Positions 1,534 to 39,600 of a stretch of DNA of 64,000 nt are shown one piece after another. Origin of the DNA: a virus; IMG/VR virus record IMGVR_UViG_3300023176_002545; one strand, given 5' to 3'. A model generated the notes under the pieces. That model saw only the letters and a program-made list of their open reading frames with translations, did not search any database and was not told the origin of the DNA. Position 1 is the stretch's first letter. Each line of letters opens with the position of its first letter. Made by a program: the position numbers and the translations under genes.

Positions 1534-1974
1534 TTAGCCATCACCTTCAGTATCGTCAGCACCTGTTAGTACGTCATCTGCTGTACCAAGAGTTGCGTCA
1601 ACACCAGCACCAATGCCTGTACCAGCTTCTTCAACTGCTACTGTTGCACCTGTACCTGTGAAGTCCCAATCAATTCTAGAACCATTGTCCATGGTTAGAA
1701 CACGACCGGAAATTTTAGTTACTTGACGAGCTGTTCCGCCATCGTCTACAGTGATTGACATTTCACCTGCTGCTAGTGCTGCTGATGCTTTGTCTACAAG
1801 GTAACAAGTACCTGTATCTGTACCGCCTGCATTTGAAACTTTGAAACGCTTTGAACCAGTTTGTTTTACAATGTAACCTGGAGTTGATCCGTTACCTGAA
1901 TTAAACTGAACTTTGATTTCGCTACCGCCTGCTGTAGGTGCACCGAAATATCTTTTGTTAATTGGTCTTCCCAT
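1534..1974 (-). CDS. Putative head decoration or capsid-associated protein
   Basis: 146-aa Gly/Thr-rich ORF (MGRPINKRYFG...) with a taggag RBS and its own TAAATA promoter, downstream of the capsid gene; function inferred from position. Confidence 0.55.
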   Translation of the reverse strand: MGRPINKRYFGAPTAGGSEIKVQFNSGNGSTPGYIVKQTGSKRFKVSNAGGTDTGTCYLVDKASAALAAGEMSITVDDGGTARQVTKISGRVLTMDNGSRIDWDFTGTGATVAVEEAGTGIGAGVDATLGTADDVLTGADDTEGDG

Positions 1975-1981
1975 TTGTTTT

Positions 1982-2066
1982 CTCCTATAAAGTAGTCCTA
2001 TCCGGGTTCTATCCGGTACGCTGTGGGTAACAGCATAAGTCCGCCTTGCGGCACACTATCTGACAC
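1982..2066 (-). ncRNA. Candidate structured 5' leader RNA of the 146-aa gene
   Basis: GC-rich island in an AT-rich genome, between promoter and RBS: GCC-GCAA-GGC (GNRA loop), GCUGU-UACCC-ACAGC and CCGG-N7-CCGG hairpins, plus a CCGGAUAG direct repeat. Confidence 0.45.
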
Positions 2067-2069
2067 AAG

Positions 2070-2076
2070 TATTTAT
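2070..2076 (-). promoter_or_regulatory. T4-like late promoter core (ATAAATA)
   Basis: Minus strand reads ggATAAATAc, just after the terminator at 2107-2129 and about 95 nt before the 146-aa start. Confidence 0.6.
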
Positions 2077-2106
2077 CCATAACGCCAGAAAGGTGAAAGC
2101 ATAGAT

Positions 2107-2129
2107 AAAAAAACCCGCCGAAGCGGGTT
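2107..2129 (-). terminator. Rho-independent terminator (UUCG tetraloop)
   Basis: Minus strand reads AACCCGC-UUCG-GCGGGUU followed by a U-run; ends the pqqA transcript. Confidence 0.85.
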
Positions 2130-2174
2130 ATTCGCAATCTTGCGTTTCTAGCAAACGTTGCATGTAATCTTCAT

Positions 2175-2246
2175 CTAGCGGTTCATTACATACATTGTTA
2201 CTTCGAAACCAAAACGCATTTCTTCTGCTATAGGTTTTGTCCACAT
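2175..2246 (-). CDS. pqqA: PQQ biosynthesis precursor peptide PqqA (23 aa, MWTKPIAEEMRFGFEVTMYVMNR)
   Basis: Hand-translated; absent from the ORF track. Strong RBS GAAAGGAG 6 nt upstream. Matches the PqqA pattern MW.KP....R.G.EVT.Y..NR, including the Glu-x3-Tyr pair that is cross-linked, and has the canonical length. Confidence 0.92.
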   Translation of the reverse strand: MWTKPIAEEMRFGFEVTMYVMNR

Positions 2247-2307
2247 ATGCTTCTCCTTTCAAATAATATTTAAACATAGATGAAAGGAAAAAGCATACGT
2301 AAAATCA

Positions 2308-2394
2308 TTAAAGACTGCTCAATATAAAATTGATTCTATTTCTTCGGTGCTGAATGATTAGTTGTTTGTAGCACCATAGTGTGAAGTTGTCCAT
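2308..2394 (-). CDS. Riboswitch-controlled 28-aa basic peptide (MDNFTLWCYKQLIIQHRRNRINFILSSL), function unknown
   Basis: Hand-translated. RBS UAGGAG 7 nt upstream of ATG, directly 3' of the glutamine riboswitch aptamer. Confidence 0.7.
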   Translation of the reverse strand: MDNFTLWCYKQLIIQHRRNRINFILSSL

Positions 2395-2423
2395 TACACT
2401 TCTCCTACTTAAAGGGTTAAAGT

Positions 2424-2466
2424 GCGTTCCTTCGCATTATGCTACTTCCGTCCCGTAGGATGAACG
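2424..2466 (-). ncRNA. Glutamine riboswitch (glnA RNA motif, glutamine-I class), minimal form
   Basis: Minus strand reads CGUUCA-UCC-UACG-GGA-CGGAAGUA-GCA-UAA-UGC-GAAGGAACGC: P1 CGUUC/GAACG, short P2 and P3 hairpins, and the CGGAAGUA...GAAG core of the glnA consensus. Confidence 0.85.
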
Positions 2467-2472
2467 TAAAAA

Positions 2473-2479
2473 TATTTAG
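2473..2479 (-). promoter_or_regulatory. Late promoter core (CTAAATA) for the riboswitch-peptide-pqqA transcript
   Basis: TAAATA lies immediately after the capsid terminator and 6-7 nt before the aptamer 5' end, consistent with late-promoter start-site spacing. Confidence 0.65.
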
Positions 2480-2481
2480 TC

Positions 2482-2510
2482 AAAAAAATAGGCCCCTAAG
2501 GGCCTATTTT
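2482..2510 (-). terminator. Rho-independent terminator after the major capsid gene (possibly bidirectional)
   Basis: AAAAUAGGCCC-UUAG-GGGCCUAUUUU plus UUU: 11-bp stem with A/U tails, about 22 nt after the capsid stop codon. Confidence 0.9.
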
Positions 2511-2532: not shown

Positions 2533-3702
2533 TTAGCTGAAGCTTACGTTAGAGATCGCAACACGCTCAACGTAGTCCGCTGCATTACCAAGAGATGATG
2601 CAGTGTTGTTTAGCTCAACATAACCATAACGTGTCATGAAGCTAACTACTGGCTCGAATGTGTCTGGATCTAGAACAACGCCGCTGCTCATCAATGGAAT
2701 GTATGGGCAGTAGAATGCTGCTGCATCTGCTTCAGATGAACCTTTGTAACCAACTAGTACGTCAGTGTCGTCTGCTGCATATGTATCAACGTAGATTCTC
2801 ATTGCGTTGTTTAGTGTACCAACGAACTTAGTGTTTGTTGGTGCTTCGAAAGTACCTTCTGTAGTACGAGCAAATGCACTTGTAGTTGCAGACTGTAGGA
2901 TTGTCAATGCTTGTGGTGAAACCACTGCAAAGTTACCTGCACCTCTACGTGTACGCTGTGCAATTTTGTTTGCTTGTCTGTTGATTAGAACTGCAAGTGC
3001 TGCATGCTCATCACCAACAAATGTTGCTGTACCAGATACTGCTGCCTGGTTGAATGTTTCACTTGCTGTACCAGCTAGTGAACGTAGTGAACCTAGGATT
3101 TCTTGGTCAATCTCAGTTGTAATTTCCTGAGCAAGAGCTGCCATGATTTCAGCTTCAACGTCAATGCCCTGTTGAGCTTGTGCGTCTTGAGCTGCTTCAA
3201 AAGTCCAGCGAGCTGATAGCTTTCTGGATTTTGCTTCAACAGTTTGCTTGAGGATTTGGATTGACATCTTACGTCCTGGAGCACCTTCAAGTGTTGCAGT
3301 TGCATCTGCTTTACCATTTGGATCAGTGCCTGCACCTGAATATGCAGTTGCAATCTTAAATGGTGATAGAGCTTCGTCACCTGCTGTTACGTTATCGTTT
3401 GATTCAGCATAACGTACTCTTAATGTGTGGATCTGACCCACTGGACCTGTCATTGGTTGTACACCAACTAACTCGTTTGCGATAGTTGTTGGCATTACAC
3501 GTCTGATGACTGGTAAAATGACTCTGTTTAGAGTCGCGACGTTACCGGCAGAAGTGGCACCAGCTGTTGCACTTTCTGACAAATACTTGCGAGTATTTTC
3601 AAGTGTTACAGCCATAACTGACTTACGATTGCCTTCAAGGCCTTCGAGCAGTGCTGTTTTAGTGTCCTGCCAGCGGCTTTCTAGTAGTTCTGACATTTTC
3701 AT
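2533..3702 (-). CDS. gp23: Major capsid protein (T4 gp23-like)
   Basis: gp23 family motifs GVQPMTGPVGQIHTLR, RKLSARWTFEAAQD, LAQEITTEIDQEI, FYCPYIP and MTRYG; strong terminator follows. Confidence 0.95.
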   Translation of the reverse strand: MKMSELLESRWQDTKTALLEGLEGNRKSVMAVTLENTRKYLSESATAGATSAGNVATLNRVILPVIRRVMPTTIANELVGVQPMTGPVGQIHTLRVRYAESNDNVTAGDEALSPFKIATAYSGAGTDPNGKADATATLEGAPGRKMSIQILKQTVEAKSRKLSARWTFEAAQDAQAQQGIDVEAEIMAALAQEITTEIDQEILGSLRSLAGTASETFNQAAVSGTATFVGDEHAALAVLINRQANKIAQRTRRGAGNFAVVSPQALTILQSATTSAFARTTEGTFEAPTNTKFVGTLNNAMRIYVDTYAADDTDVLVGYKGSSEADAAAFYCPYIPLMSSGVVLDPDTFEPVVSFMTRYGYVELNNTASSLGNAADYVERVAISNVSFS

Positions 3703-8940: not shown

Positions 8941-10950
8941 TTATACTCTGTAGGTATTCCTTCCTGCTTTATTGACTGCACGAGTATTTTCTCTATATGC
9001 TTCAATTAATCTATCAAATTTTCTGTTTAATTCACCTGTAAATTGTTCCATTTGTGGACCAATCTGATTAGCCATGTTTTGCATCTGCGGAGCCATTTGA
9101 TTGGCCATACTTTCCATTTGTGGACGCATTTGATTGGCCATAGCTTCCATTTGTGGACGCATTTGATTGGCCATAGCTTCCATTTGTGGACGCATTTTGT
9201 CAGCCATTTGTTTCATAGAAACTACTAAACTGTTAGCATTTGGTGTGATAAACTCAGGTCCTCTCTCACCAACCATATTTAACATGCCGCCCAATGCTGT
9301 ACCACCTAAGAAGTTGCCTTGAGGGTTAGTATTATCTAATAATCCTTGTAGTACATTGTTTAATTCTGTAAACGCAGAGTGTAGTTCAGGAGGAATTCGA
9401 TTAGTTTCAGCTTCTTGGGTTATTCCTGCTGCTGCACCTGCTGCTGCTGTTCCTTCCGGAGTTGCTGCTCCTAAAGTAGTTGGTTGATTTACACTGTTAC
9501 CACCAGTAACTAATCCTGTGCCTACAGCATTTACGCCTGTTACACCTGCACTATTGATCCCGTCTAATGTAGTAGCAAATCCTCTTAGACCGCTATCTAC
9601 TTCGTTTTTCAAAACATTTATCATGTTTTCTCTTAACGCACCCGAAACGTTAGTGATAGCATCTTGTGCTGATGCCATTGCTGCTGTTAATCCGTCAGTG
9701 CTTGGAGGAGGTGGGCCACCGCCGCCACCTAATGTTTCTTGTCCTGCTTCTATTCTACGGTTTAATTCTGCTAGTGCATCGTCAAAAGAAATGTCTGCTA
9801 ATTCTTTACTTGGGTCAGCGTTTGCTAATTCTTGTCTAATAGCTATTAACCTATCATTAAAATTAGTAAAGTTTCCTAAGCTATCTTGCATGCCTCTAAT
9901 ATAGTCACTATCAGAACGTATTCTACCAATTCTTATTCTGTTTTCGTCGTTTTGAGCTCTAGTCATTGCAGCGATATATTCACGCTGTGCTTGTGCATAA
10001 GCTTCTGGATCTTGTGCTTGCATTGCAGCTCGCATGTTTTGTGCTGCTGCAATTACTTCTTGTCCGTAGAACGCTGCTGCCCCTGCACTTTCTCTTGTTA
10101 CATTTCCTTGTACTAGAATGTCTTCAAGTAGTGTTGCAGCATTTTTATCCATTGCACCAATTTGGGTAATAGAATTACTAATTTGATCTGTTAACGCACC
10201 AGTTTCTGTTCTTAAAAATGCTTGAATTCTTCCTTCTCGACGTTTAGCATCCATTTCTTTTTGCAGTTCTTTTCTCTGCATGCCAGTTAACTGGCTTAAT
10301 CTATCTAGCTCTAACGCATATTCTTGTGTTGCTTTATTTCTAGCAACATCGTTACCCATAGTTTGCAAGAACGATGTTCTATTAATAGCAGCGAAGCCCA
10401 TAATAGTTTCATTTATTTCTTCGGTGCTGTAACCAATTCGTCTTAAACCTTGTGAAAAACCTCTTGTGTCGTTTCTAAAACTATTCGACATGTGGGCAAA
10501 CATTCTAGTAGCGTCTGCACCTGTGCCACCCATAGCACCTAATATGTCTCGATTTTTTTCAACTAATTTAGCAAAATCACCAACCAACATGCCTGATCTT
10601 GCTGCAACCTGACCTACTTCAGTCAAACCTCCACTTAGAAGTATACCAGATCTAGTTAAACCTTGATATGATGCTGTACTTTCGTCTATATAACCGGCAA
10701 TAGCCTTAGACATTCCTCCAAGTGCGTCACCGACTATTGGAATTCGCCTCATTAATGGAGTAAAGGCATCAACGTAAGCAGTTAATCTTGTTTCACCTGA
10801 AAGTGCAGCTAATCCAAATTTACCAATGCCACTAGTGGCATCACCAAGAGCTGCTGTCCACTGACTAGTACTGCCGGCCGCACCTCGAGTTGACGTACGG
10901 AGGCGTTCTATTTCTTCTTCTAATGCGGCAATGCGATCTGCGTCACTCAT
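8941..10950 (-). CDS. Tape-measure-like protein
   Basis: 669-aa helical A/G/Q-rich protein with a VGERGPE motif and C-terminal 11-residue repeats; divergent from a tail-chaperone-like gene. Confidence 0.65.
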   Translation of the reverse strand: MSDADRIAALEEEIERLRTSTRGAAGSTSQWTAALGDATSGIGKFGLAALSGETRLTAYVDAFTPLMRRIPIVGDALGGMSKAIAGYIDESTASYQGLTRSGILLSGGLTEVGQVAARSGMLVGDFAKLVEKNRDILGAMGGTGADATRMFAHMSNSFRNDTRGFSQGLRRIGYSTEEINETIMGFAAINRTSFLQTMGNDVARNKATQEYALELDRLSQLTGMQRKELQKEMDAKRREGRIQAFLRTETGALTDQISNSITQIGAMDKNAATLLEDILVQGNVTRESAGAAAFYGQEVIAAAQNMRAAMQAQDPEAYAQAQREYIAAMTRAQNDENRIRIGRIRSDSDYIRGMQDSLGNFTNFNDRLIAIRQELANADPSKELADISFDDALAELNRRIEAGQETLGGGGGPPPPSTDGLTAAMASAQDAITNVSGALRENMINVLKNEVDSGLRGFATTLDGINSAGVTGVNAVGTGLVTGGNSVNQPTTLGAATPEGTAAAGAAAGITQEAETNRIPPELHSAFTELNNVLQGLLDNTNPQGNFLGGTALGGMLNMVGERGPEFITPNANSLVVSMKQMADKMRPQMEAMANQMRPQMEAMANQMRPQMESMANQMAPQMQNMANQIGPQMEQFTGELNRKFDRLIEAYRENTRAVNKAGRNTYRV
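9048..9216 (-). repeat. 33-bp tandem repeat encoding MRPQMEAMANQ units
   Basis: Two identical copies of ccatttgtggacgcatttgattggccatagctt at 9114-9179, with partial or diverged copies on both sides (about 5 units). Confidence 0.9.
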
Positions 10951-27623: not shown

Positions 27624-30600
27624 ATGGCAAATGAGCAACAGGAAACCAATCTTCCAGGAGAAACTAGAGATGAAAGAAAAACATCTTTAGACCTGTTACC
27701 TAAGTATTTTAGATCTAATACTAATAAAAAGTTTTTAGCTGCAACATTAGATCCGTTAATACAAGATGGCCAGATTGAAAAACTCAATGGATATCTTGGT
27801 CGTAAAACAGCAAAGTCTTTTAAAACAACTGATAACTATCTTCAAGATGTTACAGATGACAGACAAAATTATCAGTTAGAACCGGCACTAGTAGTTAAAG
27901 ATAATAACGAAAACATAACCTATTACAAAGACTACAACGATTATATTAACCAAATACGTGCATACGGTGGAAACACCGTCAACCATTCACGACTAAACAC
28001 TCAAGAATATTATTCTTGGGATCCTCGTGTTGATTGGGATAAGCTAACAAATTATAGAGAATATTATTGGATAAGTCAAGGCCCGGTTGCTATTAGCATT
28101 GCAGGTCAAGAAAAAGGTATTACTAGTACCTATACTGTAAAATTACAAAACAACGGTGATAACAAAAGTTATATATTAAGTCCTGATGGATTAACAAACA
28201 ATCCAACTATTAAACTATTTAGAGGACAAACATATAACTTTGAAGTTGATCAAAAAAATAATCCTTTCTTTATTAAAACTAAAAAGACCAAAGACGGATT
28301 TGAATACAATGAAGATGTAGTAAACAATGGTATTGAAAAAGGCATTGTTACAATTACCATTGATCAAAACACTCCGGATATTTTATATTATGTTAACACC
28401 GCAGATCTAAATGCATCTGGACTTATACAAGTTTTAGAAATTGAAGAAAATACCGAAATTGATGTTGACAATGAAATTGTAGGTAAAAAAACATATCAAT
28501 TAAAAAGTGGACACTATCTATCAAATGGTATGAAGGTTAACTTTTTAGGTGATGTTACTCCTGCAAAATATGCTGAAGGTAACTGGTACGTAGAAGGTGT
28601 TGGCAAAGAAATTGTTCTTGTTAGCGAACAAGAATTAGAAACAACATATCCGGGACAGGTACTAGAAGAACTACAGTTTGACGATGTAGCATTTGATATT
28701 GTACCTTTTGACCAAAACTCAGAAAAAGACAAAGATTACATTACAATTAACCGTGCAGCATATGACGGTAATCACTGGAGCCGTGCTAACCGTTGGTTCC
28801 ATAAAGATGTAATCGAAAAAAGTTTTGAAATTGTTGGTCTAACACCAGTTATTGATCAAACTGCAAGAGCAAACAGACCTATTCTTGAATTTATTCCTGG
28901 CATACAATTATACAACAATGGCTGGAATAGAATAGGCGATGTTGATCTAGTTGATACAACTACAACAAATATAATGAGCGAAATTGAAGGCTCTATTGGT
29001 TATTATGTTGATAACATAAATCTTGTTGAAGGCATGAGAGTTATCTTTACAGCAGACACTGATCTTTTAATTCGCGATAAGATTTTTACTGTTAAATTTA
29101 TACGATTTGAAAATGAAAGATTGATCACTCTTATTCCTGACAACGACATAGAAATTGCAACTGGCGACACTGTTATAGTAAAATCAGGTAAAGTAAATCA
29201 AGGTAAACAATTCTGGTTCAATGGAACACAATGGACTGAAGCACAACAAAAAACAGCTTCTAACCAGCCACCATTGTTTGACCTTTTTGACGGTAATGGT
29301 GTTAGCCTTAGTGATTCATCTGTTTACGGTGCAACTTCTTTTGTTGGAAACAAAGTATTTTCCTTTGCAGTTGGCAACGGAACTGCTGACAGTGTATTAG
29401 GGTTTCCATTAAAATATCTAAGTATTTCAAACATTGGTGATATTTTATTTGAATGTAACTTGCTAAGTGACACTTACGAATATGTTAAAAACGAAAAGAA
29501 ATTTTCAATCAATGCAGACGACACTTACATTAAAGTTTGGAGACGAGCTACAAAAACATTTGGGTATCACAGTGCATGGGAACGAGCAGTTACCGAAAGC
29601 AAACAAGAAGTAATTAGACATTATATTGCAGATCTTACACGTAATAGTTTTGAAATAGATGTTTATGACAGTCCTGCAGAACTTAGCGATCTTAAAGTTA
29701 AAGTTTTTGTAAACAATAAACTTAGAAGAGATTACACACTAACAACTGGTGCTAATGGATCTTTATATGTAACCTTTGATGCTGACCTTAATGAAAATGA
29801 TGGTATTATAATTAAAACAACGTCATTAGAAAACAAGAATGACAACGGCTATTACGAGTTTCCATTAAACTTACAAAACAATCCTAACAATGATAATCCG
29901 GTTAATATCACACTTGGTGAAATAACAGATCACGTTGAGTCTATTGCAAATGCTCATCCTGACTTTGAAGGATCATTTCCCGGCGTAACAAATTTAAGAG
30001 ATATTGCAACACTAAGCGGTTATGGAACACGTTTTGTAAAACATTCTGGTCCATTAAATATTGCTCTTTATCACCTAACAAACAAAGATACAAATGTTAT
30101 TAAGGCAATTGAGTATGCAGCAAAATCATATGATACTTTCCAAAAAACATTTTTAGATCAAATTACAACATTTAATATTACAAACGATCCTAATATAGAT
30201 GTTGATAATATTTTAGAAAATATAACAAAAACAAACAAAGTTGGAGATAGTTTCTATAACAGTGGCATGGTGCCTTTTAGAGCATTTAATAAAATTGTTC
30301 ATACTGTTGTTGATCCTAGTTTTGAACTTTACGGCATTTCAGAAATATACGAACCGTACAAACATCAAGACAAAGCACTGTTAGTTTATTTGAATAACGA
30401 ACAATTATTACTAGGTTCAGAGTACGAGTTTATTGACGATAACTTTGTTAAGATATTAAAAACACTAGCAGTAGATGATACTATAGAAATTAGAGAATAT
30501 TCTACACTAGTAGGTAACTACATTCCACCAACTCCTTCAAAGTTAGGTATGTTACCTAAATATGAACCTAAAAAATATTTAGACACTACACTAAGAATAC

Positions 30601-33600
30601 CTGTAAATGTAATACAAGGACACGACGGCAGCATTATTCGTGCTTTTGATGATTACAGAGATGAATTAATATTAGAATTAGAACGTAGAATTTATAATAA
30701 TATTAAAATTCAATATACTAATGATCTTATAGATATCTATAATTTTTACCCTGGCGGCTTTAGAACAACAGATTATTCTCTAACAGAAACTAATAATATT
30801 TTGCGTCCAATGTTCTTAAAGTGGCACAAAAATTTAACAACTTCTTATACTGACAATACCTTCTATGCCGAAGGTGAACCATTTACATATAATTACAGTT
30901 CGGGTTCATTTAATGGGAAACAACTTCCAGGTTTCTGGAGAGGAATATACCTATACTGGTATGATACTGATCGCCCACATTTAACTCCTTGGGAAATGCT
31001 AGGATACAGCATTCAACCTACATGGTGGGAGGACACATATGGTCCTGCTCCGTATACTAGTGAAAACTTAATTCTATGGAGAGACTTACAAGAAGGTCGT
31101 ATAAAAGAACCTGGAAATCAGCGTGTAGACAATGACTTTAGTCGTCCAGGTTTATTAGATATTATTCCTGTTGACGAAAACGGAAGACTCAAAGATCCTA
31201 TCTTTACAAACATTGCACAAAATTATGAAGCAACATTGTTTGGCAGTGAGTATAAGTTTGGTGACTTTGCACCGGTTGAAAATGCATGGAGACGTTCTAG
31301 CACCTATAGATTCTCTCAACTAGCAGCATGGTTCTTAAGCAAACCATCACAAGTATTTGGTGTTTATCTTGATAGAGCACATACTGCTCGTGATGTATCC
31401 GGTATTGTAAAATACGCAGGTGAATATGTGAGCCTAGCAGGGCTTTCTGATAAAGTTTCTAACACTGCTCTTGCAAGCGGCCTTATTGATTATGTTAACA
31501 ATTGGCTTTACCAAACAAGTTCTTCTTTTGTTGAAAATTACAAATTTGATCTAGCAAATGCAACCAACCAGTTGGGTGCTAAACTTGCAGGTTATACTGA
31601 AAAGTCTAAATTTAGATTAATACTAGACAGTCGTACTCCTTTAAATGAAGGCAATGTTTTCATTCCATCTGAGAACTATGAAATTTTCTTAAACAAAAGT
31701 TCTCCAGTTGACGTACTTGCTTACAGTGGTGTAATTATTGAAAAACGTACTAATGGATTTTTAATTAGAGGCTATGATCAAAAATTCCCTTATTTTACAT
31801 ATAGACCTGTACTTACTTCTCAAAACGACACATTAATAACAATAGGTGCAATTAGTGAAAGTTTTATTAACTGGGCAGAAGAGAAAAACTACATTGAAGG
31901 TAAAACTGTACAGTATGCAGGAAACTTTTATAGATGTAAAGAATCACATACCAGTGACGAAAACTTTGATGAAACTAAGTTTGTACGTTTGCCGTCATTA
32001 CCAACTGTAGGCGGCAATAGTTACTTCTATAGAAAACTTTACGATCAAATTGGTTACAAAGTTTTAACATATGGAACAGTTTTAAAAACAGTTCAAGAAG
32101 TTGTTGATTTTATCTTTGGATATTCAAAATATCTAGAAGAACAAGGATTTATATTTGACAACTATGATAACGAAAATCAAATACTACAAGATTGGGAGAC
32201 ATCTATTAAAGAATATGTTTTCTGGACAACACAAAACTGGGCAGAAGGAACAGTTATTGCATTAAGTCCAGGTGCCCAAACATTCTCACTTGATGTTGAA
32301 TATACAAACGTAGACAGTTTGAATAACGATTTTTATGATTATGAAATTTATAACAGCTCAGGCACAAGAGTACCTATACAAAATCTTGAAGTAACAAGAG
32401 CCAACAACAAGTTTACTGTTGAAAGTTTAGGCGAAGAAGGTATTTACTTTGCTAGATTACATCTAGTTCAAACTGAACATGTTGTATTGCTTGATAATAC
32501 AACAGTGTTTAATGACACAATTTACGAAAAGAGTGCAGGATATAGACAAGAACGTATCAAAGTTCTTGGTTATAAAACTATTCTCTGGGACGGTGGTCTA
32601 ACAACTCCAGGATTTATATTTGACAATGTTGTTATTAACGACTGGCAACCATTCCAAACTTACAAAATTGGTGACATTGTTAAACACAAAGAATATCTTT
32701 ACAGTGCAACTTCAAAAGTTGTTGCTGGAGAATACTTTGACACTAAAAATTGGCAAAAAATTGACAACCAACAAACAAGCGTTCTTTTACCAAACTGGGA
32801 TTATAGAGCAGAACAGTTTACAGATTTCTTTGATTTAGATACAGATAACTTTGATACTGAACAACAGCGTTTAGCACAACATACTATTGGTTATCAGAAA
32901 CGCCGTTATTTAGAAAATATTATTAATGATGACGTGAGTCAGTACAAGTTTTATCAAGGTATGATACTTGACAAAGGTACTAAAAACGTATTGTCTAAAA
33001 TGTTTGATAAACTAGGTGCTGCTGATAAAGAAAGCCTAGAGTTTTATGAAGAATGGGCAATTAAATCAGGAGACTACGGTGCTGTTGATAGTTTTGTTGA
33101 AGTTGAATATTTAATTGACGAATCACTAGTAAGATTAGAACCTCAACCATTTGAACTTGTTGATGCTATTAATTCATCGTCAACTGACCTAGTATATCGT
33201 CTAAGCAAAGAAGACGTATATTCAAAATTTGACGGTTATAATCATAAACCGTTTATGCAAACTAACAAACTGCCAGACTTTATTAGAACCGCAGGAAACG
33301 TTGACGAAAACGATGTTACAGCAAACGTAAAAACTATAGACGATATTCTTAAACTTAACATTGACGAATTTAAAGTTGGTTCTACAGTTTGGGTTAGTTT
33401 TTATAATTCAACTTGGAATATCCTTAGATTACAAAATTCTAAAATTAATGTTTTGTCAGCAGCAGCGTCTGGAACTGATGTAAGAGTAAAACTTACACAA
33501 CCAAATGCAGTAAGTGTTGGCGACATTATTGGTATTAAAAATATTTCTGCAGAAGTTGATAAGTTTTATAAAGTCAAATCTGTAGACAGTTATACAGTTA

Positions 33601-36600
33601 TACTTGCAGCAGACAAAAAACTTGATGAAGATGTTCAAGTTGATGATAGTAGCCAAGGGCTTCTATTTACTTTTGTTGATGCACGTATTCCAGACATGTC
33701 TAGTATCAATGACATTACACCTATTGAAGGCTTCCAACAAGGCGAATACATTTGGGTTGATGGAGAAAAAGGTAACTGGCAAGTACTTGAGAAAAATAAA
33801 GTATATGAACTAGCTGCTATTAACAACAACACTTCAACAACTAGATCGTTTGGCAGTGCAATAGCAGTTGACGAATACAATAGAGACTTTATTGTTGCTG
33901 ATCCAGCACATACTGTTACTGAGACACTACAGCGTGATTCAAATGACGTTGTAACAAAAGTAATTAAAACATCAGACGCAAAGGTTAATGTTTATGCTAG
34001 ACCAAACGATGTAACACAGCATAGACTAATACAAACAATTACATTACCAGAGTCATTATACGAATCTGGATTTAATACACAATATAGTGTAGAAGAGAAA
34101 CGTCCGCTGTTTACAGGGTTTGGATCTGTAATAGCACTATCTCCTGACACTAAGTTTCTTGCTGTTGGTTTACCAGATGCAGGAAATGTACCTTCATATT
34201 TCTTAGGGGACTGGAATTCAGCACTAACATATAATACTGAAGATGTTGTGTTATATAATGGAAAGTTTTATAAAGCATTATCAGACGGACTAATTGCAAC
34301 TTCACCTGATCTAGTAGCAGACTGGGAAGAAGTTGGTTACAATCCAGTCGATAGTAAATCAACTTCTAACAGTGGCGTAGATGGACAAGGTATTGTTGTT
34401 GTTTACGGAAGAACCGGAAGCGGAAGTTTTAGTATTCTCTTTATAATGCAATCACCTGAAATAGAAGCATATCAAAAGTTTGGTGAAAAGATTACTATTG
34501 CTAAAGTAGGTGAAGAAAGTTATAGAATGTTTGTAAGTGCAGTACGCCAAGGTAGCGTTGGTGCTGTATTTGTATTTGACAGAAACATTGATACAGGCGG
34601 CTTATGGAAATACCGTCCAGATTTATACCTACCACTAGCAGCAAATCCAGACGGTACTAGCGATGTTGAAATCAGTACAATTTCTATGGACTTTGGTCAA
34701 AGTGTTGCACATTCAAGAGATGGTAAAATATTAGCAGTTAGTGCTCCAAACGCAAACAGCGTTTATTATGAAAACTACAAAGGTCAGTATAGTCCGAGTC
34801 TTACATATGCTGTAGATACAGTTGTAGAATACAACGGTGCATACTGGAAAAAACTTACCACAGCAGGTGCAGGAACATTGCCGGCACTTGGAATCAACTG
34901 GGAAGAATTAACACAAGATACTAGTGGAAGTTTTGGTAAGGTATTTGTTTACAAGTATGAAAATAACAAATACAACCTTGTACAAACAATAAATGAAAGA
35001 ACACTAGACAATCTAGACTTTGGGCAAGGAGACAAGTTTGGTTACAGTATTGCATTTACTAAAGATGCTGCAACTCTTGTAATTGGATCGCCTGCTTATG
35101 ATACTAATTTAACTGACACAGGAAAAGTTGTAATTCTTGAAAATGATTTTGCTACAACTTCATCAAATGTAAATTACAGTTTAGTACAAACACTGCAAGT
35201 TAGATCGCAAGTTAATCAACAGTTTGGTGTTGGAGTAAGCATTAGTGACGATGTTATTGTAGTTGGATCTCGCCGAGGCGATCAAATACAACCAATAATG
35301 ATTGACAACGGCGAAACAACATTTGACTCTGATTCAACATATATTTCAAATGTATTTGAAAACACAGGAAAAATTGATGTTTACCGTAAGTACAAAGGTC
35401 AATACACATACGAAGATAGTTTAGTTGTTCCAGACGAAAATGCAAGCAACCTAGGCGAAAACGTAATAGCTAACAAGAATCACGTTATTACAGGCGTTAA
35501 TGCTTATAATGATCTTCAAGGTGCAGTGCTTGATTTCCATAGACCACAAAATGAATCAGTTTGGAAAGTACACAGACAAGCAATATTCCCTGCAGATGTA
35601 ACTAAGATCAAAAGTGCGTTCTTGTATGACACAAGAAAAAATATTGTCTTAAAAGAATTAGATGTTATCGATCCATTGCAAGGAAAAATTGTAGGAGCAG
35701 TAGAACAAGAATTAAAATATAAAACATTTTGGGATCCAGCAGTTTATACTGTTGGCAATGAAACACTAAATGTTGATGAAGTTGGTTCTTGGGACGGTAC
35801 ACATTTAGGCGAAGTATGGTGGGATTTAACTACAGCTCGTTTTGTAAACTATCATCAAAATTCAGCACTCTATAGAGGTAATAACTGGAGTAAATTAAAT
35901 GAGTATGGTAGTATTGATGTATATGAATGGATAAGTTCAAAATTCAAACCTAGTGAATACGATGCTCTATCTGATACTGAAGAAGCGTTGGCATTAGGTA
36001 TTTCAGGAAAATCCAAATATGGTGATGCAGCATATTCTATAGCAAGAGAATACGATCCTGTTGCTAAAATATTTACTAGCAAATATATGTTCTGGGTAAA
36101 AGGTAAAACAACAATACCGTATGTTGAAGGCCGCAGCATGGATGTGTCTTCTATGGCAACATTGATTGCAGATCCTAAAGCAGCTGGATATACACACATT
36201 GCTATAACAAGTAATGACAGTTTTGTGTTATATAATGCAAAACAATATCTAAACGATAAAGATACAGCATTGAATATTAGATTCTGGACAACAGACAAAA
36301 TTGATACAAATATTCATAGACAGTATCAAATAGTTTCTGAAGGATTAGATATTAGTGTTCCTAATGACACTATTGTTGACAAATGGTTTGACAGTTTAGT
36401 AGGATTTACACCTACAGGGCTACCAGTTCCTAATATTAATATTAATGAAAAACAACGTTATGGAATTTTAAACAAGCCAAGACAAAGCATGTTTAAAAAT
36501 AGAATAGAAGCATTAAAACAAGCAGTAGAATACTGTAATTATATTTTCTCTAAAAACGTTCTTGTAGATGATTTTGATTTAACTCCTTTGTTTGAAAAAG

Positions 36601-39600
36601 AAGCAGTGCCTGATGAATTTTCAAGATTATATGACCTTGAAATTACAGACGACCTTGAACTTACTTTTATTGCAACAGGTAAATTAACAACTGCTGAGTT
36701 AGAAATAGTTGTTGATGACGGACAAGTAAAAGATGTAATTGTTGTTAACGAAGGTAGAGGTTATATTAAACCTCCAAAACTTGAAGTAGTTGGTCAAGGC
36801 AAGAACGCAGAAATTGAAGCTGAAGTTGATAAGTTTGGTAGAATATCAAATATTATTATTAAAAATCCTGGTACAGGATATTTAGATGATACTTATATTT
36901 CTGTAAGACAATACACAGTATTAAGCACAAACGTTGACAATACAGGTAAATGGGGTCTATACACTTATGACTCTAGAAACAAAAAGTGGCAATTAACTAG
37001 AGTACAATCTTATGATGTAACAAATTATTGGTCATATATTGATTGGTATGCAACTGGGTTTAATGAAAAAACTCCAGTAGACTTTTTGCTAGAAGGATCA
37101 TATCAATTACAAGACATTAATCCAAGACCAGGACAAGTAGTTAAGATTTCTAATATTGGTAGTAGCGGAACTTGGTTATTACTGCAAAGAAACAACGAAG
37201 TTAACGAAAATGATATTAACTTAAATTATAATGTTGTTGGTAGGCAAAATGCTACAATTCAATTGAGTGACGAACTTTATAACTTTGATGCAAATGTATT
37301 GGGGTATGACGGTATTAGTTATGAAGAAATTAACTATGATAGTATTCCTACCCAAGAAGTAAGAGCAATACTGGAAACAATTAGAAATAATATTTTTGTT
37401 GATAATTTACAGGTAGAATTTAACAACTTATTCTTCAACTCAATTCGTTACATAATGGTTGAACAGCCAGCAGTTGATTGGATATTCAAAACAAGTTTTG
37501 TAAAAGCAAAACACAATGTTGGTTCTCTTGAACAACGTTCTACATATAAAAATGATAATCTTATTTCGTATGAAGATTATGTTAACGAAGTTAAACCATA
37601 CAAAACTAAAATTCGTGAATTTGTAAGCAGTTATACTAATGTTGAAACTGTTAATACTCTTACTACAGATTTTGATCTAAAATCAAACAACAATATTAAA
37701 GTAAGAGACAACAGACTTGAACTTGTAGACAACAATTCTACACTAAGCATTTATCCAGACAAGAGTTGGAAAGACAATCACTCATATGGCATAACTGAAA
37801 TTGCAATACAAAATGCAGGAAGCGGATATCAAACAGCACCTGAATTAACAATCCAAGGCGGTGGCGGCACTGGAGCAACTGCTCGTGCATTTATTGGACG
37901 CAATGGTATTATTACTAATGTTGTGGTTACTAACCCTGGAACAGGCTATTATTCAAGACCAGAAGTTATTATAAACGGCTCAGTTGACGACACAGGCGAG
38001 GACGCAGTTCTTATTGCTGTACTTGGCAATGACACTGTAAGAAAAAATAATCTTACTGTTAAGTTTGATAGAATTGTTGGCACACAAGAAATTTCTACAC
38101 TAGATGTTACAGAAACATTTACAGGTACTGGACTAATAACAACTTTTGCACTAAAATGGCCAGTTGATTTGAGAAAAGGTCTTACAACTGTTACAGTAAA
38201 TGGTACTGAACTTTTAGAAAGTGAATTTACATTAGGAAATGCATCAACGTTCCATGAAACATTTACAAAATCATACGGTCATTTAGAAATTCCTAATCCA
38301 CCCGATGCAACAAATGAAATTGTGGTATCATATAAAAAAGACATTTCGTTCTTAAGAGCATACGATAGAGTCAAATACTATTACATGCCAATTGCTGGTC
38401 AACTTGCAAACGATCCAGGAGCACTAATGACTGGTATTGACTACGGCGGTGTTAATGTAACTGGATTTGGATTTGAACCTTCCGGTGGTTGGGGAACAGA
38501 TGGTACTTCTTGGGATAATGTAACTTGGGAAGGTGCAGACGAAACTTTTACAGATGTTACAATTTACAGTGATAGCAATATAGCAACATATACATTTGAA
38601 CTTCCACCTCCAAGTGGAGAAAGTTGGAACGTATATGTAAACGGTGTAAGAATTGATGATCCTAATTTTGGAACAACAACTCCTGTAACAAATACAAATG
38701 CAGTAATGAAAACAATACATGGTGACGATTCAACTGTTGCATTTGATATTCCTTTACAAGATGTGTCATCTTTAATATTAGGTGATGGAAATTCAGAACA
38801 AATTATTCTAAGAAAAACAACCAGCGATGGTAGTTATATTCCTGTAGGCGTAGACATTGACAGTGTTGTAAATGGTGGTGATTTAGGTTATACAGTTTCA
38901 ACTGGATATAACCCAGAAGATATTACTATGGACGGTGATGGGTTTGTTACTGAAACAACCAGCGGCGGCTTAGAAGAACAATTACCAGGACACGTATCAG
39001 AAGCAATAGACATGTTTGTTTATAACCTATCTAAGAGTGGTGGCCCACAAATTAACAGCATAAGTTATATTGCTGACGGCAATACTAAGAGCTTTGCATA
39101 TATTGCAGATCCGCAAAGTAAAGATGCACTAATTGTTAAAGTTAATGACCGTATATTGCGTCCAACAGAGTACAAGTATACTCCAAACTTTGCAGCATAC
39201 AGTGATTTCTTAAACGCATATCAAAGTAATTTAGATATTAGACAGACTAGACTTCCTGTAGTAACTGCTGAAATTGCAGATATTGATAGTCAACTTACAA
39301 CTCTTAATACTCAGCTTGATGCAGCACTAGATGATATTACAAATGCCAGCCAGGCTATTAGTTTTTGGACTAGTGAAAGAGATTTTTATGAAACTCAAAT
39401 ATTGTTTATACAATCACAGCTATCAGGATTAGATCCGTCAAATCCACTATTTGGTCAACTGCAATCACAGCTTGGTGCAGCTCAAGCAGCTCTAACTAAT
39501 GCAGAAAACAACTTGTCAGATGCACAAGATGATCTAGCAACAGCAGAATCTACTAGAGATGCTGTTAGTGCAGAAATAGCAACACTTGAAAGTGACAAGA

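What the first reader, a model, noticed from the sequence alone, without database searches (positions are those of the whole stretch)
2107..2510. Insulated riboswitch-peptide-pqqA cassette between head genes
Seen on the minus strand: capsid terminator, TAAATA promoter, glutamine aptamer, 28-aa ORF, pqqA, then a UUCG terminator. No terminator is visible between the two peptide genes, and all of it is missed by the ORF track. Inference: a bicistronic late transcript linking nitrogen-status sensing with supply of the PQQ precursor, so the phage may tune host N and C1/redox metabolism using only micropeptides. I do not recall this combination being described, but cannot search for it.
Basis: partly seen in the sequence, partly recalled or inferred. 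Interest (0 to 1): 0.88.

Follow-up and report, generated by a model that had tools for sequence, protein, structure and literature searches.

The report
Phage riboswitch-peptide and pqqA cassettes
Just after its capsid gene, a large phage of methanol-eating bacteria carries two small neighbouring units, a glutamine-sensing RNA switch driving a roughly 30-residue peptide and a host-derived gene for the PQQ cofactor precursor, but each most likely runs on its own control rather than as one nitrogen-regulated operon.

Summary

The riboswitch-peptide-pqqA order recurs in six distinct versions from about 15 public contigs and in two genomic settings, so the neighbourhood is not a one-off.

The proposed regulatory link is not supported:
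- The riboswitch platform is a covarying short helix attached to P1 that covers the spacer between the ribosome-binding site and the start codon of its own ORF, so it acts on translation.
- pqqA has its own conserved TAAATA box. The box sits in the loop of a -21.6 kcal/mol hairpin that masks the pqqA ribosome-binding site and start codon in longer transcripts, as in T4 gene e.
- The two units also occur alone, in the opposite order, and with pqqA inverted.

pqqA matches Methylophilaceae PqqA at 20 of 23 residues, and no pqqB-E is phage-borne. It is probably an auxiliary gene that supplies the consumed PQQ precursor late in infection. Viral pqqA has been published once.

New points:
- The riboswitch target is a widespread, unannotated helical micropeptide family. 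This scan had already noted it on other DNA.
- A +2-frame ORF probably overprints pqqA.

The parts
2533..3702 (-). gp23-type major capsid gene (389 aa), which defines the hot spot upstream of the cassette
   Evidence: Pfam Gp23, E 1e-101. About 70% amino-acid identity to capsids of 280-470 kb jumbo myophages.
2482..2510 (-). Intrinsic terminator of the capsid gene (11-bp stem plus U run)
   Evidence: -18.5 kcal/mol, z -4.8. Relatives have an equivalent hairpin and T run at this position.
2473..2478 (-). P1: TAAATA late-promoter-like box, 6 nt before the aptamer's P1 stem
   Evidence: Invariant in all aligned cassettes. TAAATA is enriched upstream of genes. The transcription start was not mapped.
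2421..2468 (-). Glutamine riboswitch aptamer (glnA RNA, RF01739)
   Evidence: 51.3 bits against 35. P1, P2 and P3 are 96.6% paired, with compensatory changes in P2.
2397..2424 (-). Expression platform: the 3' tail of P1 (2424..2420) pairs with 2401..2397, between the ribosome-binding site (2406..2402) and the start codon
   Evidence: 98.7% paired in 15 sequences. In 116 unique cassettes the variable pair is U-A 76 times and C-G 38 times, with 2 exceptions. It matches the helix attached to P1 in PMC6212724.
2308..2394 (-). 28-codon ORF of a conserved micropeptide family (aromatic residues at positions 4 and 7, invariant Cys at 8, basic centre)
   Evidence: Alignment A3. 92 unique peptides of mostly 28-38 aa lie behind riboswitches in IMG/VR. 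11 hits among 1.84 billion representative proteins. AlphaFold2 predicts a single helix, pLDDT 89.8. No Pfam family.
2244..2299 (-). Hairpin pairing 2299..2281 with the pqqA ribosome-binding site and start codon (2261..2244); P2 lies in its loop
   Evidence: -21.6 kcal/mol, z -5.7, 0 of 200 shuffles fold as well. The leader from P2 alone is unstructured (0 kcal/mol). The same design is found in L024 (-24.1), L343 (-15.5) and L087 (-16.4), and more weakly in L339 and L210.
2267..2274 (-). P2: TTTAAATA late-promoter-like box, 20 nt before the pqqA start codon
   Evidence: Invariant in six cassette versions. It also precedes pqqA where no riboswitch is present and where pqqA is inverted relative to the capsid gene (L030).
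2175..2246 (-). pqqA: 23-residue PQQ precursor peptide with its own AGGAG (2257..2253)
   Evidence: 20 of 23 residues are identical to the commonest Methylophilaceae PqqA. 82-84% DNA identity to unannotated pqqA in OM43 and LD28 phages.
2128..2244 (-). Probable overprinted ORF in frame +2 (38 codons, GTG two bases after the pqqA ATG) with a conserved C-terminal ..ETQDCE tail; includes a possible internal start at 2163
   Evidence: In one search, frame +2 is open through pqqA in all 7 tail-bearing loci against 4 of 239 others; brings the tail-bearing genes to 10 unique sequences, all open. The tail evolves by synonymous changes and indels in multiples of three. The internal ATG is missing in 3 of 9 versions. 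Translation is not shown.
2105..2129 (-). UUCG-capped intrinsic terminator closing the cassette
   Evidence: -12.6 kcal/mol, z -4.0. Identical stem in L024 and L366.
1972..2078 (-). Next unit: third TAAATA box (2075..2070) and the freshwater-2 RNA leader (2055..1972) of the 146-aa gene
   Evidence: RF02980, 76.6 bits against 49.9. The same leader is found in relatives.

Best explanation
Two independent, mobile late-expression units sit side by side in the hot spot just downstream of the capsid gene. The phage is a jumbo myophage whose host is most likely a methylotroph of the family Methylophilaceae.

Unit 1
- A transcript from the TAAATA box P1 begins at the glutamine aptamer.
- Without glutamine, a short helix attached to P1 ties up the nucleotides between the ribosome-binding site and the start codon.
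- Glutamine binding melts that helix and lets the 28-residue helical peptide be translated.
- The peptide's target is unknown. By analogy with the only characterised targets of this switch class, it may act on nitrogen assimilation, for example glutamine synthetase.

Unit 2
- pqqA is a host-derived auxiliary gene transcribed from its own TAAATA box, P2.
- P2 lies inside a hairpin. Transcripts reading in from upstream (capsid or P1) carry both arms, so the pqqA ribosome-binding site and start codon are masked.
- Transcripts started at P2 lack the 5' arm and are translated. This is the T4 gene e / I-TevI design.
- The peptide feeds the host's PqqB-E enzymes, which consume one PqqA per PQQ. This would sustain PQQ-dependent methanol dehydrogenase while host transcription is shut down.
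- A +2-frame ORF overlapping pqqA probably yields a second small peptide.

Shown: the sequence elements, their conservation and covariation, and the modularity of the units.
Inferred: transcription starts, ligand response, masking in vivo and PQQ output.
For: - Element identities.
- TAAATA as a gene-upstream motif.
- Platform covariation. The published mechanism is in PMC6212724.
- Masking hairpin with P2 in its loop and an open leader from P2. Recurrence in relatives. The T4 precedent is in PMC3014915.
- Modularity:
  - 10 of the 80 closest capsid loci have the riboswitch and 1 has pqqA.
  - The riboswitch-to-pqqA order occurs in 11 IMG/VR contigs and 3 metagenome contigs.
  - The pqqA-to-riboswitch order occurs in 5 contigs.
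  - pqqA is inverted and convergent with the capsid gene in L030.
  - 100 of 104 riboswitch-peptide cassettes lack pqqA.
  - More than 120 viral contigs carry pqqA.
- Host origin: the same pqqA pattern in genome records is almost entirely Methylophilaceae, at 20 of 23 identity. There is no pqqB-E in the window or in 209 viral loci.
- The riboswitch was not found in 121 Methylophilaceae genomes, so it is phage-borne.
- Viral PqqA precedent: PMC7678222.
Against: - There are no transcript or translation data, so P1 and P2 are motif-level calls.
- The masking hairpin is strong only in the window, L024 and L343. It is moderate in L087 and not better than shuffles in L210, L339, L458 and L030.
- In the base-pair-probability test, composition-preserving shuffles also often pair with the purine-rich ribosome-binding site.
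- The two units are found adjacent in at least eight distinct versions. One of these lies in a different genomic setting, between a virion structural gene and an ssDNA-binding gene, with the same junction sequence. That could reflect selection for linkage rather than a shared insertion site.
- Host assignment rests on PqqA similarity only.
Confidence: 0.6

Rival explanations
1. One reading: one bicistronic late mRNA from P1, so that glutamine status governs PqqA supply. The most plausible route is that ribosomes translating or terminating on the 28-codon ORF open the hairpin that masks the pqqA ribosome-binding site (translational coupling).
For: - There is no intrinsic terminator between the genes.
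- The order riboswitch, peptide, pqqA recurs in six versions with a conserved junction.
- The hairpin begins only 9 nt after the stop codon of the ORF in the window.
Against: - The anti-ribosome-binding-site part of the 5' arm lies about 19-30 nt beyond the stop codon, outside the reach of a terminating ribosome. In L343 the ORF stops about 20 nt earlier still.
- P2 is invariant and sufficient elsewhere.
- The opposite order of the units exists.
- 96% of riboswitch-peptide cassettes have no pqqA.
Confidence: 0.13
2. The hairpin has no regulatory role. Both P1 and P2 transcripts are translated, and pqqA is simply made constitutively late. The pyrimidine-rich tract upstream is part of the promoter context or a relic of the recombination that moved the module.
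For: - The hairpin is weak in several relatives.
- Shuffled U/C-rich upstream sequence often pairs with the ribosome-binding site too.
- The 5' boundary motif AATGAT.. recurs at module edges.
Against: - The window and L024 hairpins are far more stable than shuffles (z -5.7 with dinucleotide-preserving shuffles for the window; z -5.8 with simple shuffles for L024).
- They pair the start codon as well as the ribosome-binding site.
- The 5'-arm sequences differ between versions in step with their ribosome-binding-site-to-start spacers.
Confidence: 0.15
3. The long hairpin is a processing or pause site, for example for RNase III, that physically separates the two cistrons. It would act as the missing boundary between them.
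For: An 18-19 bp near-perfect stem is present in the window and in L024.
Against: The stems are interrupted and shorter in L087, L210, L339 and L343. No U run follows the hairpin. No data exist on host RNases.
Confidence: 0.07
4. The phage PqqA is not a substrate but a decoy that blocks host PQQ synthesis.
For: None directly. It is only that the phage carries no pqqB-E.
Against: All residues that are invariant in host PqqA, including the Glu and Tyr that are cross-linked, are kept in 34 viral variants. The variable positions are the same ones that vary in hosts.
Confidence: 0.03

Closest known systems
Type-1 glutamine riboswitch of the Synechocystis gifB (IF17) leader (Klahn et al. 2018, PMC6212724; Rfam RF01739)
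   Same: - Same aptamer family, scoring above the gathering threshold.
- Same kind of platform: a short helix attached to P1 that occludes the translation start and is proposed to melt on glutamine binding.
- Controls a small protein.
   Different: - It is phage-borne, in a host family where the switch was not found (0 of 121 genomes).
- The aptamer is minimal and sits at the very 5' end of a late transcript.
- The controlled peptide is about 30 aa and is not a DUF4278/IF17 relative.
Glutamine riboswitch of OM43 myophage Melnitz (Buchholz et al. 2022, PMC9004378)
   Same: 84% DNA identity over the aptamer and platform. It is followed by a homologous 32-codon ORF with the same aromatic-Cys motif.
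   Different: - The paper assigns the switch to the upstream ssrA gene and does not annotate the downstream ORF.
- The record instead annotates a minus-strand hypothetical gene across it.
- Melnitz has no pqqA there.
Viral PqqA in Lake Baikal methylotroph viruses (Coutinho et al. 2020, PMC7678222)
   Same: A stand-alone pqqA in a virus predicted to infect Methylophilaceae, read as an auxiliary gene supporting PQQ-dependent methanol dehydrogenase.
   Different: - Here it sits in a jumbo myophage structural region.
- It has a late promoter inside a hairpin that masks its ribosome-binding site.
- It lies next to a riboswitch unit and has a probable overlapping ORF.
- No methanol dehydrogenase gene was looked for beyond the window.
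T4 gene e (lysozyme) and I-TevI translational control (reviewed by Uzan and Miller 2010, PMC3014915)
   Same: A late promoter lies within the sequence that encodes the 5' strand of a hairpin sequestering the ribosome-binding site. Long upstream transcripts are silent, and late-promoter transcripts are translated.
   Different: - In T4 this separates early from late expression. Here the nearest upstream promoter (P1) also looks late, so the purpose would be insulation from neighbouring late units.
- This is predicted only, not demonstrated.
Cyanophage psbA (recalled from general knowledge, not tested here)
   Same: A phage copy of a rapidly consumed host component that keeps energy metabolism running during infection.
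   Different: PqqA is a 23-residue precursor consumed by host enzymes, not a structural subunit.

Membership tests
Glutamine riboswitch (glnA RNA, RF01739) | Covariance-model score at or above Rfam's gathering score, over the full model | tested here: met
   51.3 bits against 35, model positions 1-53. Relatives score 47-61 bits.
Glutamine riboswitch (glnA RNA, RF01739) | P1, P2 and P3 helices kept by compensatory change | tested here: met
   96.6% of cells are paired and all three P2 pairs show changes on both sides. 0 of 500 shuffles reach the observed covariation score.
Glutamine riboswitch (glnA RNA, RF01739) | Selective binding of L-glutamine | not testable with these tools
   Needs in-line probing or calorimetry on RNA from 2468..2392.
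Glutamine riboswitch (glnA RNA, RF01739) | Expression platform: a helix attached to P1 that occludes the translation start | tested here: met
   The rival pairing of the P2 strand with the ribosome-binding site is 65.6% paired, no better than shuffles.
PqqA (PF08042 / TIGR02107) | Profile score above the curated cut-offs | tested here: met
   42.2 bits against 21.1, and 38.5 bits against 20.
PqqA (PF08042 / TIGR02107) | Conserved Glu and Tyr (E-x3-Y) that become PQQ | tested here: met
   Residues 15 and 19 of the ORF. They are kept in all 34 viral variants.
PqqA (PF08042 / TIGR02107) | Works with PqqB-E, which are usually encoded next to it | tested here: not met
   No pqqB-E in the window or in 209 viral loci. 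The canonical pqqABCDE operon is present in Methylophilaceae loci. The phage gene must therefore rely on host enzymes.
PqqA (PF08042 / TIGR02107) | Conversion to PQQ | not testable with these tools
   Needs complementation of a pqqA-null methylotroph.
T4 gene e-type promoter-in-hairpin control | Late promoter located inside a hairpin whose 3' arm is the ribosome-binding site and start codon | tested here: met
   structure; promoter motif. Predicted only.
T4 gene e-type promoter-in-hairpin control | Long transcripts untranslated, late-promoter transcripts translated | not testable with these tools
   Needs 5'-end mapping and reporter fusions.
Glutamine synthetase inactivating factors IF7/IF17 (DUF4278) | Sequence membership in DUF4278 | tested here: not met
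   No DUF4278 match at E up to 10 for any of 10 family members.
Glutamine synthetase inactivating factors IF7/IF17 (DUF4278) | Binds and inactivates glutamine synthetase | not testable with these tools
   Needs a biochemical assay. The candidate host family does encode GlnA (5 of 5 genomes).

The most novel reading that the evidence does not exclude
The pqqA gene of this cassette is dual-coding. One ribosome-binding site serves the pqqA ATG and a GTG two bases downstream, so the same roughly 120-nt late mRNA yields both PqqA and a second, conserved 36-41-residue peptide with a ..ETQDCE tail. With the glutamine-switched helical peptide next door, the phage would then deploy three unannotated micropeptides from 400 nt to reprogram a methylotroph.
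Probability: 0.4. Interest if true: 0.7.

Novelty: new variant of a known kind. Interest (0 to 1): 0.55.

Why it matters
- It identifies the likely target of phage glutamine riboswitches outside cyanophages. The target is a conserved peptide of about 30 residues, not the upstream ssrA proposed for phage Melnitz.
- It shows that pqqA is a common but largely unannotated auxiliary gene of phages of methylotrophs, including the cultured OM43 and LD28 phages Venkman, MEP401, MEP402 and P19250A. These isolates make the idea testable at the bench.
- It suggests that a T4-style promoter-in-hairpin device insulates such small inserted genes from their neighbours.
- It warns against reading adjacency of small units in a phage hot spot as an operon.

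Tried and rejected
- The whole genome of the window is not held.
I used degenerate DNA patterns instead.
- The anti-ribosome-binding-site pairing of the aptamer's P2 strand, proposed in another first-reader note and seen in the single-sequence minimum-energy fold, was rejected. It is 65.6% paired and no better than shuffles, and it cannot form in relatives with a GCC/GGC P2.
- Pfam gave no family for the micropeptide.
- A complex prediction of the peptide with two copies of a Methylophilus GlnA gave no verdict. It counts neither for nor against binding.
- The overprinted ORF has no relatives on record other than itself. Its AlphaFold2 model is of low confidence (pLDDT 59.7).
- Translational coupling by a terminating ribosome was considered and judged unlikely on geometry.
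- The metagenome pattern scan returned 18 matches, of which only 3 were real cassettes.
- Pfam did not name the neighbours of the L087 cassette. PHROGs did.

Full report
**Observation.**
- The gp23-type capsid gene (3702..2533; Pfam Gp23, E 1e-101) ends in a strong terminator (2510..2485 plus a U run; -18.5 kcal/mol, z -4.8).
- A TAAATA box (2478..2473) stands 6 nt before a full-length match to the glutamine riboswitch (RF01739, 2468..2421; 51.3 bits against a gathering score of 35).
- An AGGAG and a 28-codon ORF follow (2394..2308).
- Then comes a 23-codon ORF (2246..2175) that passes both curated PqqA models (Pfam 42.2 bits against 21.1; TIGR02107 38.5 bits against 20) and keeps the Glu-x3-Tyr pair.
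- A UUCG-capped terminator closes the unit (2129..2112).

TAAATA is a genuine signal in this genome. It is the rarest of the 15 same-composition hexamers in the window, yet the commonest within 60 nt upstream of gene starts (13 of 44). Fourteen of its 51 sites fall in the 3.4% of DNA that is intergenic.

**What kind of phage and host.**
- The capsid is about 70% identical to those of 280-470 kb jumbo myophages and 80-86% identical to many uncultured IMG/VR contigs.
- The pqqA DNA is 82-84% identical to unannotated stretches in the cultured OM43 and LD28 phages MEP401, MEP402, Venkman and P19250A.
- The same degenerate pqqA pattern, scanned over one genome per prokaryote species, hits almost only Methylophilaceae. 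Their commonest PqqA is identical to the window's at 20 of 23 residues.
- No pqqB-E homologue is in the window or in 209 viral loci, whereas the canonical pqqABCDE operon is seen in the bacterial loci.
- The host is therefore most likely a Methylophilaceae methylotroph, and the phage gene depends on host enzymes. This is an inference.

**The riboswitch unit.**
- Ten of the 80 closest capsid loci carry the same layout just after the capsid terminator. The TAAATA box is invariant, and seven of the ten have a homologous ORF.
- Pattern scans of IMG/VR found the riboswitch followed by this peptide family in at least 177 contigs. These give 125 unique cassettes and 92 unique peptides, mostly 28-38 residues.
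- A profile search of 1.84 billion representative proteins found only 11 members, so gene callers almost never call this ORF.
- The family has aromatic residues at positions 4 and 7, an invariant Cys at 8 and a basic centre. It has no Pfam match and is predicted to be one continuous helix (pLDDT 89.8).
- The expression platform is a short helix between the nucleotides just 3' of P1 (2424..2420) and those between the ribosome-binding site and the start codon (2401..2397). It is 98.7% paired in 15 sequences. In 116 unique cassettes its variable pair is U-A 76 times and C-G 38 times, with only two exceptions.
- This is the helix attached to P1 that Klahn et al. propose is melted by glutamine to allow translation of gifB (PMC6212724).
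- An alternative pairing of the P2 strand with the ribosome-binding site, seen in the single-sequence fold, is not conserved.
- The switch therefore acts on translation of its own ORF.
- It was not found in 121 Methylophilaceae genomes, while the cyanobacterial control was found. It belongs to the phage gene pool.
- The OM43 myophage Melnitz has the same aptamer (84% identity) followed by a homologous 32-codon ORF that its record does not annotate. The paper attributes the switch to the upstream ssrA.

**The pqqA unit.**
That is correct, but two features were missed.
- First, a second box, TTTAAATA (2274..2267), lies 20 nt before the pqqA start codon. It is invariant in all six aligned versions of the cassette.
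- Second, the stretch 2299..2244 folds into a hairpin of -21.6 kcal/mol (z -5.7; 0 of 200 dinucleotide shuffles fold as well). It pairs the pqqA ribosome-binding site and start codon with sequence upstream of that box, and the box sits in the loop. The leader from the box onwards has no structure at all.
- The nearest relative has the same hairpin (-24.1 kcal/mol). L343 and L087 have versions with different arm sequences that still cover the ribosome-binding site. L339, L210 and some others are weak.
- This is the design documented for T4 gene e and I-TevI. Long upstream transcripts carry an inhibitory structure, while transcripts from a late promoter inside it are translated (PMC3014915).

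**Are the two units one operon?** They do co-occur.
- The order riboswitch, peptide, pqqA is found in 11 IMG/VR and 3 metagenome contigs. These make six distinct versions including the window.
- Five of the six versions lie directly after a capsid gene 81-84% identical to the window's.
- The sixth lies between a virion structural gene and an ssDNA-binding gene. All six share a conserved junction.

They are also separable.
- 100 of 104 riboswitch-peptide cassettes with enough downstream DNA lack pqqA.
- pqqA occurs in more than 120 viral contigs under many different promoters.
- In five contigs pqqA lies upstream of the riboswitch, inserted at the P1 box.
- In L030 a pqqA with the same TAAATA box is convergent with the capsid gene and shares its terminator.

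Together with the translational nature of the switch and the masking hairpin, this favours two autonomous modules sharing a hot spot. Relatives place a manA RNA (RF01745) and the freshwater-2 leader in that same hot spot. A read-through P1 transcript probably exists but is predicted to be poor at making PqqA. Coupling through a terminating ribosome is unlikely, because the anti-ribosome-binding-site segment lies about 19-30 nt past the stop codon.

**A probable third peptide.**
- After pqqA a short tail ending ..ETQDCE is conserved in nine unique versions. It evolves by synonymous changes (for example CGT to AGA) and by indels in multiples of three.
- It lies in frame +2 of pqqA.
- That frame is open through the whole of pqqA in every tail-bearing gene: 7 of 7 loci, and 10 unique genes. 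It is open in only 4 of 239 other viral and bacterial pqqA genes.
- In the other genes the wobble bases at four sites commonly create stops. The Phe codon before the conserved Glu is TTT in 156 of 238 of them but TTC in all ten tail-bearing genes, while the neighbouring Phe codon varies freely.
- An internal ATG is missing in three versions.
- The likely start is the GTG two bases after the pqqA ATG, which gives a 38-codon ORF (2244..2128).
- Translation is unproven. The tail-bearing genes may be one clade, and the structure model is of low confidence.

**What is known.**
- Glutamine riboswitches in phages and in Melnitz are published (PMC9004378).
- Viral PqqA in methylotroph viruses is published once (PMC7678222).
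- The promoter-in-hairpin device is classical T4 biology (PMC3014915).
- I found no paper combining pqqA, phage and the glutamine riboswitch. None of the papers I read annotates or describes the micropeptide family or the overlapping ORF.
- This scan had already noted and followed up the riboswitch-micropeptide unit after a capsid gene on other DNA (e1-5319817). The pqqA neighbour is what is new here.

**Verdict.** It is a new variant of known kinds, of moderate interest.

Noticed in passing
window 1972-2078 (-): The GC-rich leader of the 146-aa gene after the cassette is the Rfam motif freshwater-2 (RF02980; 76.6 bits against 49.9), preceded by a third TAAATA box. The same leader precedes the homologous gene in seven relatives, so this orphan metagenomic motif is the leader of a phage late gene next to the capsid gene.
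   Followed up: partly
L142 5433-5637, L134 4256-4465, L159 5949-6158: In relatives, the slot that pqqA fills in the window holds a strong sigma-70-like promoter driving a roughly 200-nt manA RNA (RF01745). That motif was known from marine metagenomes and T4-like cyanophages.
   Followed up: partly
L001 2571-2666 (+) (Melnitz, MZ577097): An unannotated 32-codon ORF homologous to the window's 28-codon ORF follows the Melnitz riboswitch. The record instead annotates a minus-strand hypothetical gene (2594-2695) across it and extends the ssrA feature over part of the aptamer.
   Followed up: yes
L002 1019-1090 (+) (MEP401); also hits H66-H69: pqqA is present but not annotated in the cultured methylotroph phages MEP401, MEP402, Venkman and P19250A. 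In a Manatee Spring viral contig the match lies under a feature annotated only as a hypothetical protein.
   Followed up: partly
L366 about 890-1190; L458 about 9900-10200: The pqqA module is bounded by short AATGAT.. repeats. In these contigs it is inserted into the P1 box of the riboswitch unit. The 5' boundary also resembles the stretch from the TAAATA box to the aptamer start, which suggests module shuffling by short-homology recombination.
   Followed up: no
P0002 (72 aa): One database protein is two copies of the micropeptide joined by a translated riboswitch platform. This suggests tandem riboswitch-peptide units read through by a gene caller. L182 and L056 carry tandem aptamers.
   Followed up: no
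G001-G005: All five Methylophilaceae genomes checked encode a GlnA above the curated cut-off; one of them (G002) is titled only Betaproteobacteria bacterium TMED22 and I assumed it to be OM43-like. The Melnitz paper states that OM43 lacks glnA. Strain H5P1 itself was not checked.
   Followed up: partly
loci, e.g. L227, L236, L253, L261: Single Methylophilaceae genomes carry several dispersed pqqA copies, only one of them next to pqqBCDE. This fits pqqA dosage being limiting.
   Followed up: no
window 27624-41543 (+): A single 4,639-codon ORF, followed by 699- and 1,984-codon ORFs, lies in the structural region. It was not examined.
   Followed up: no
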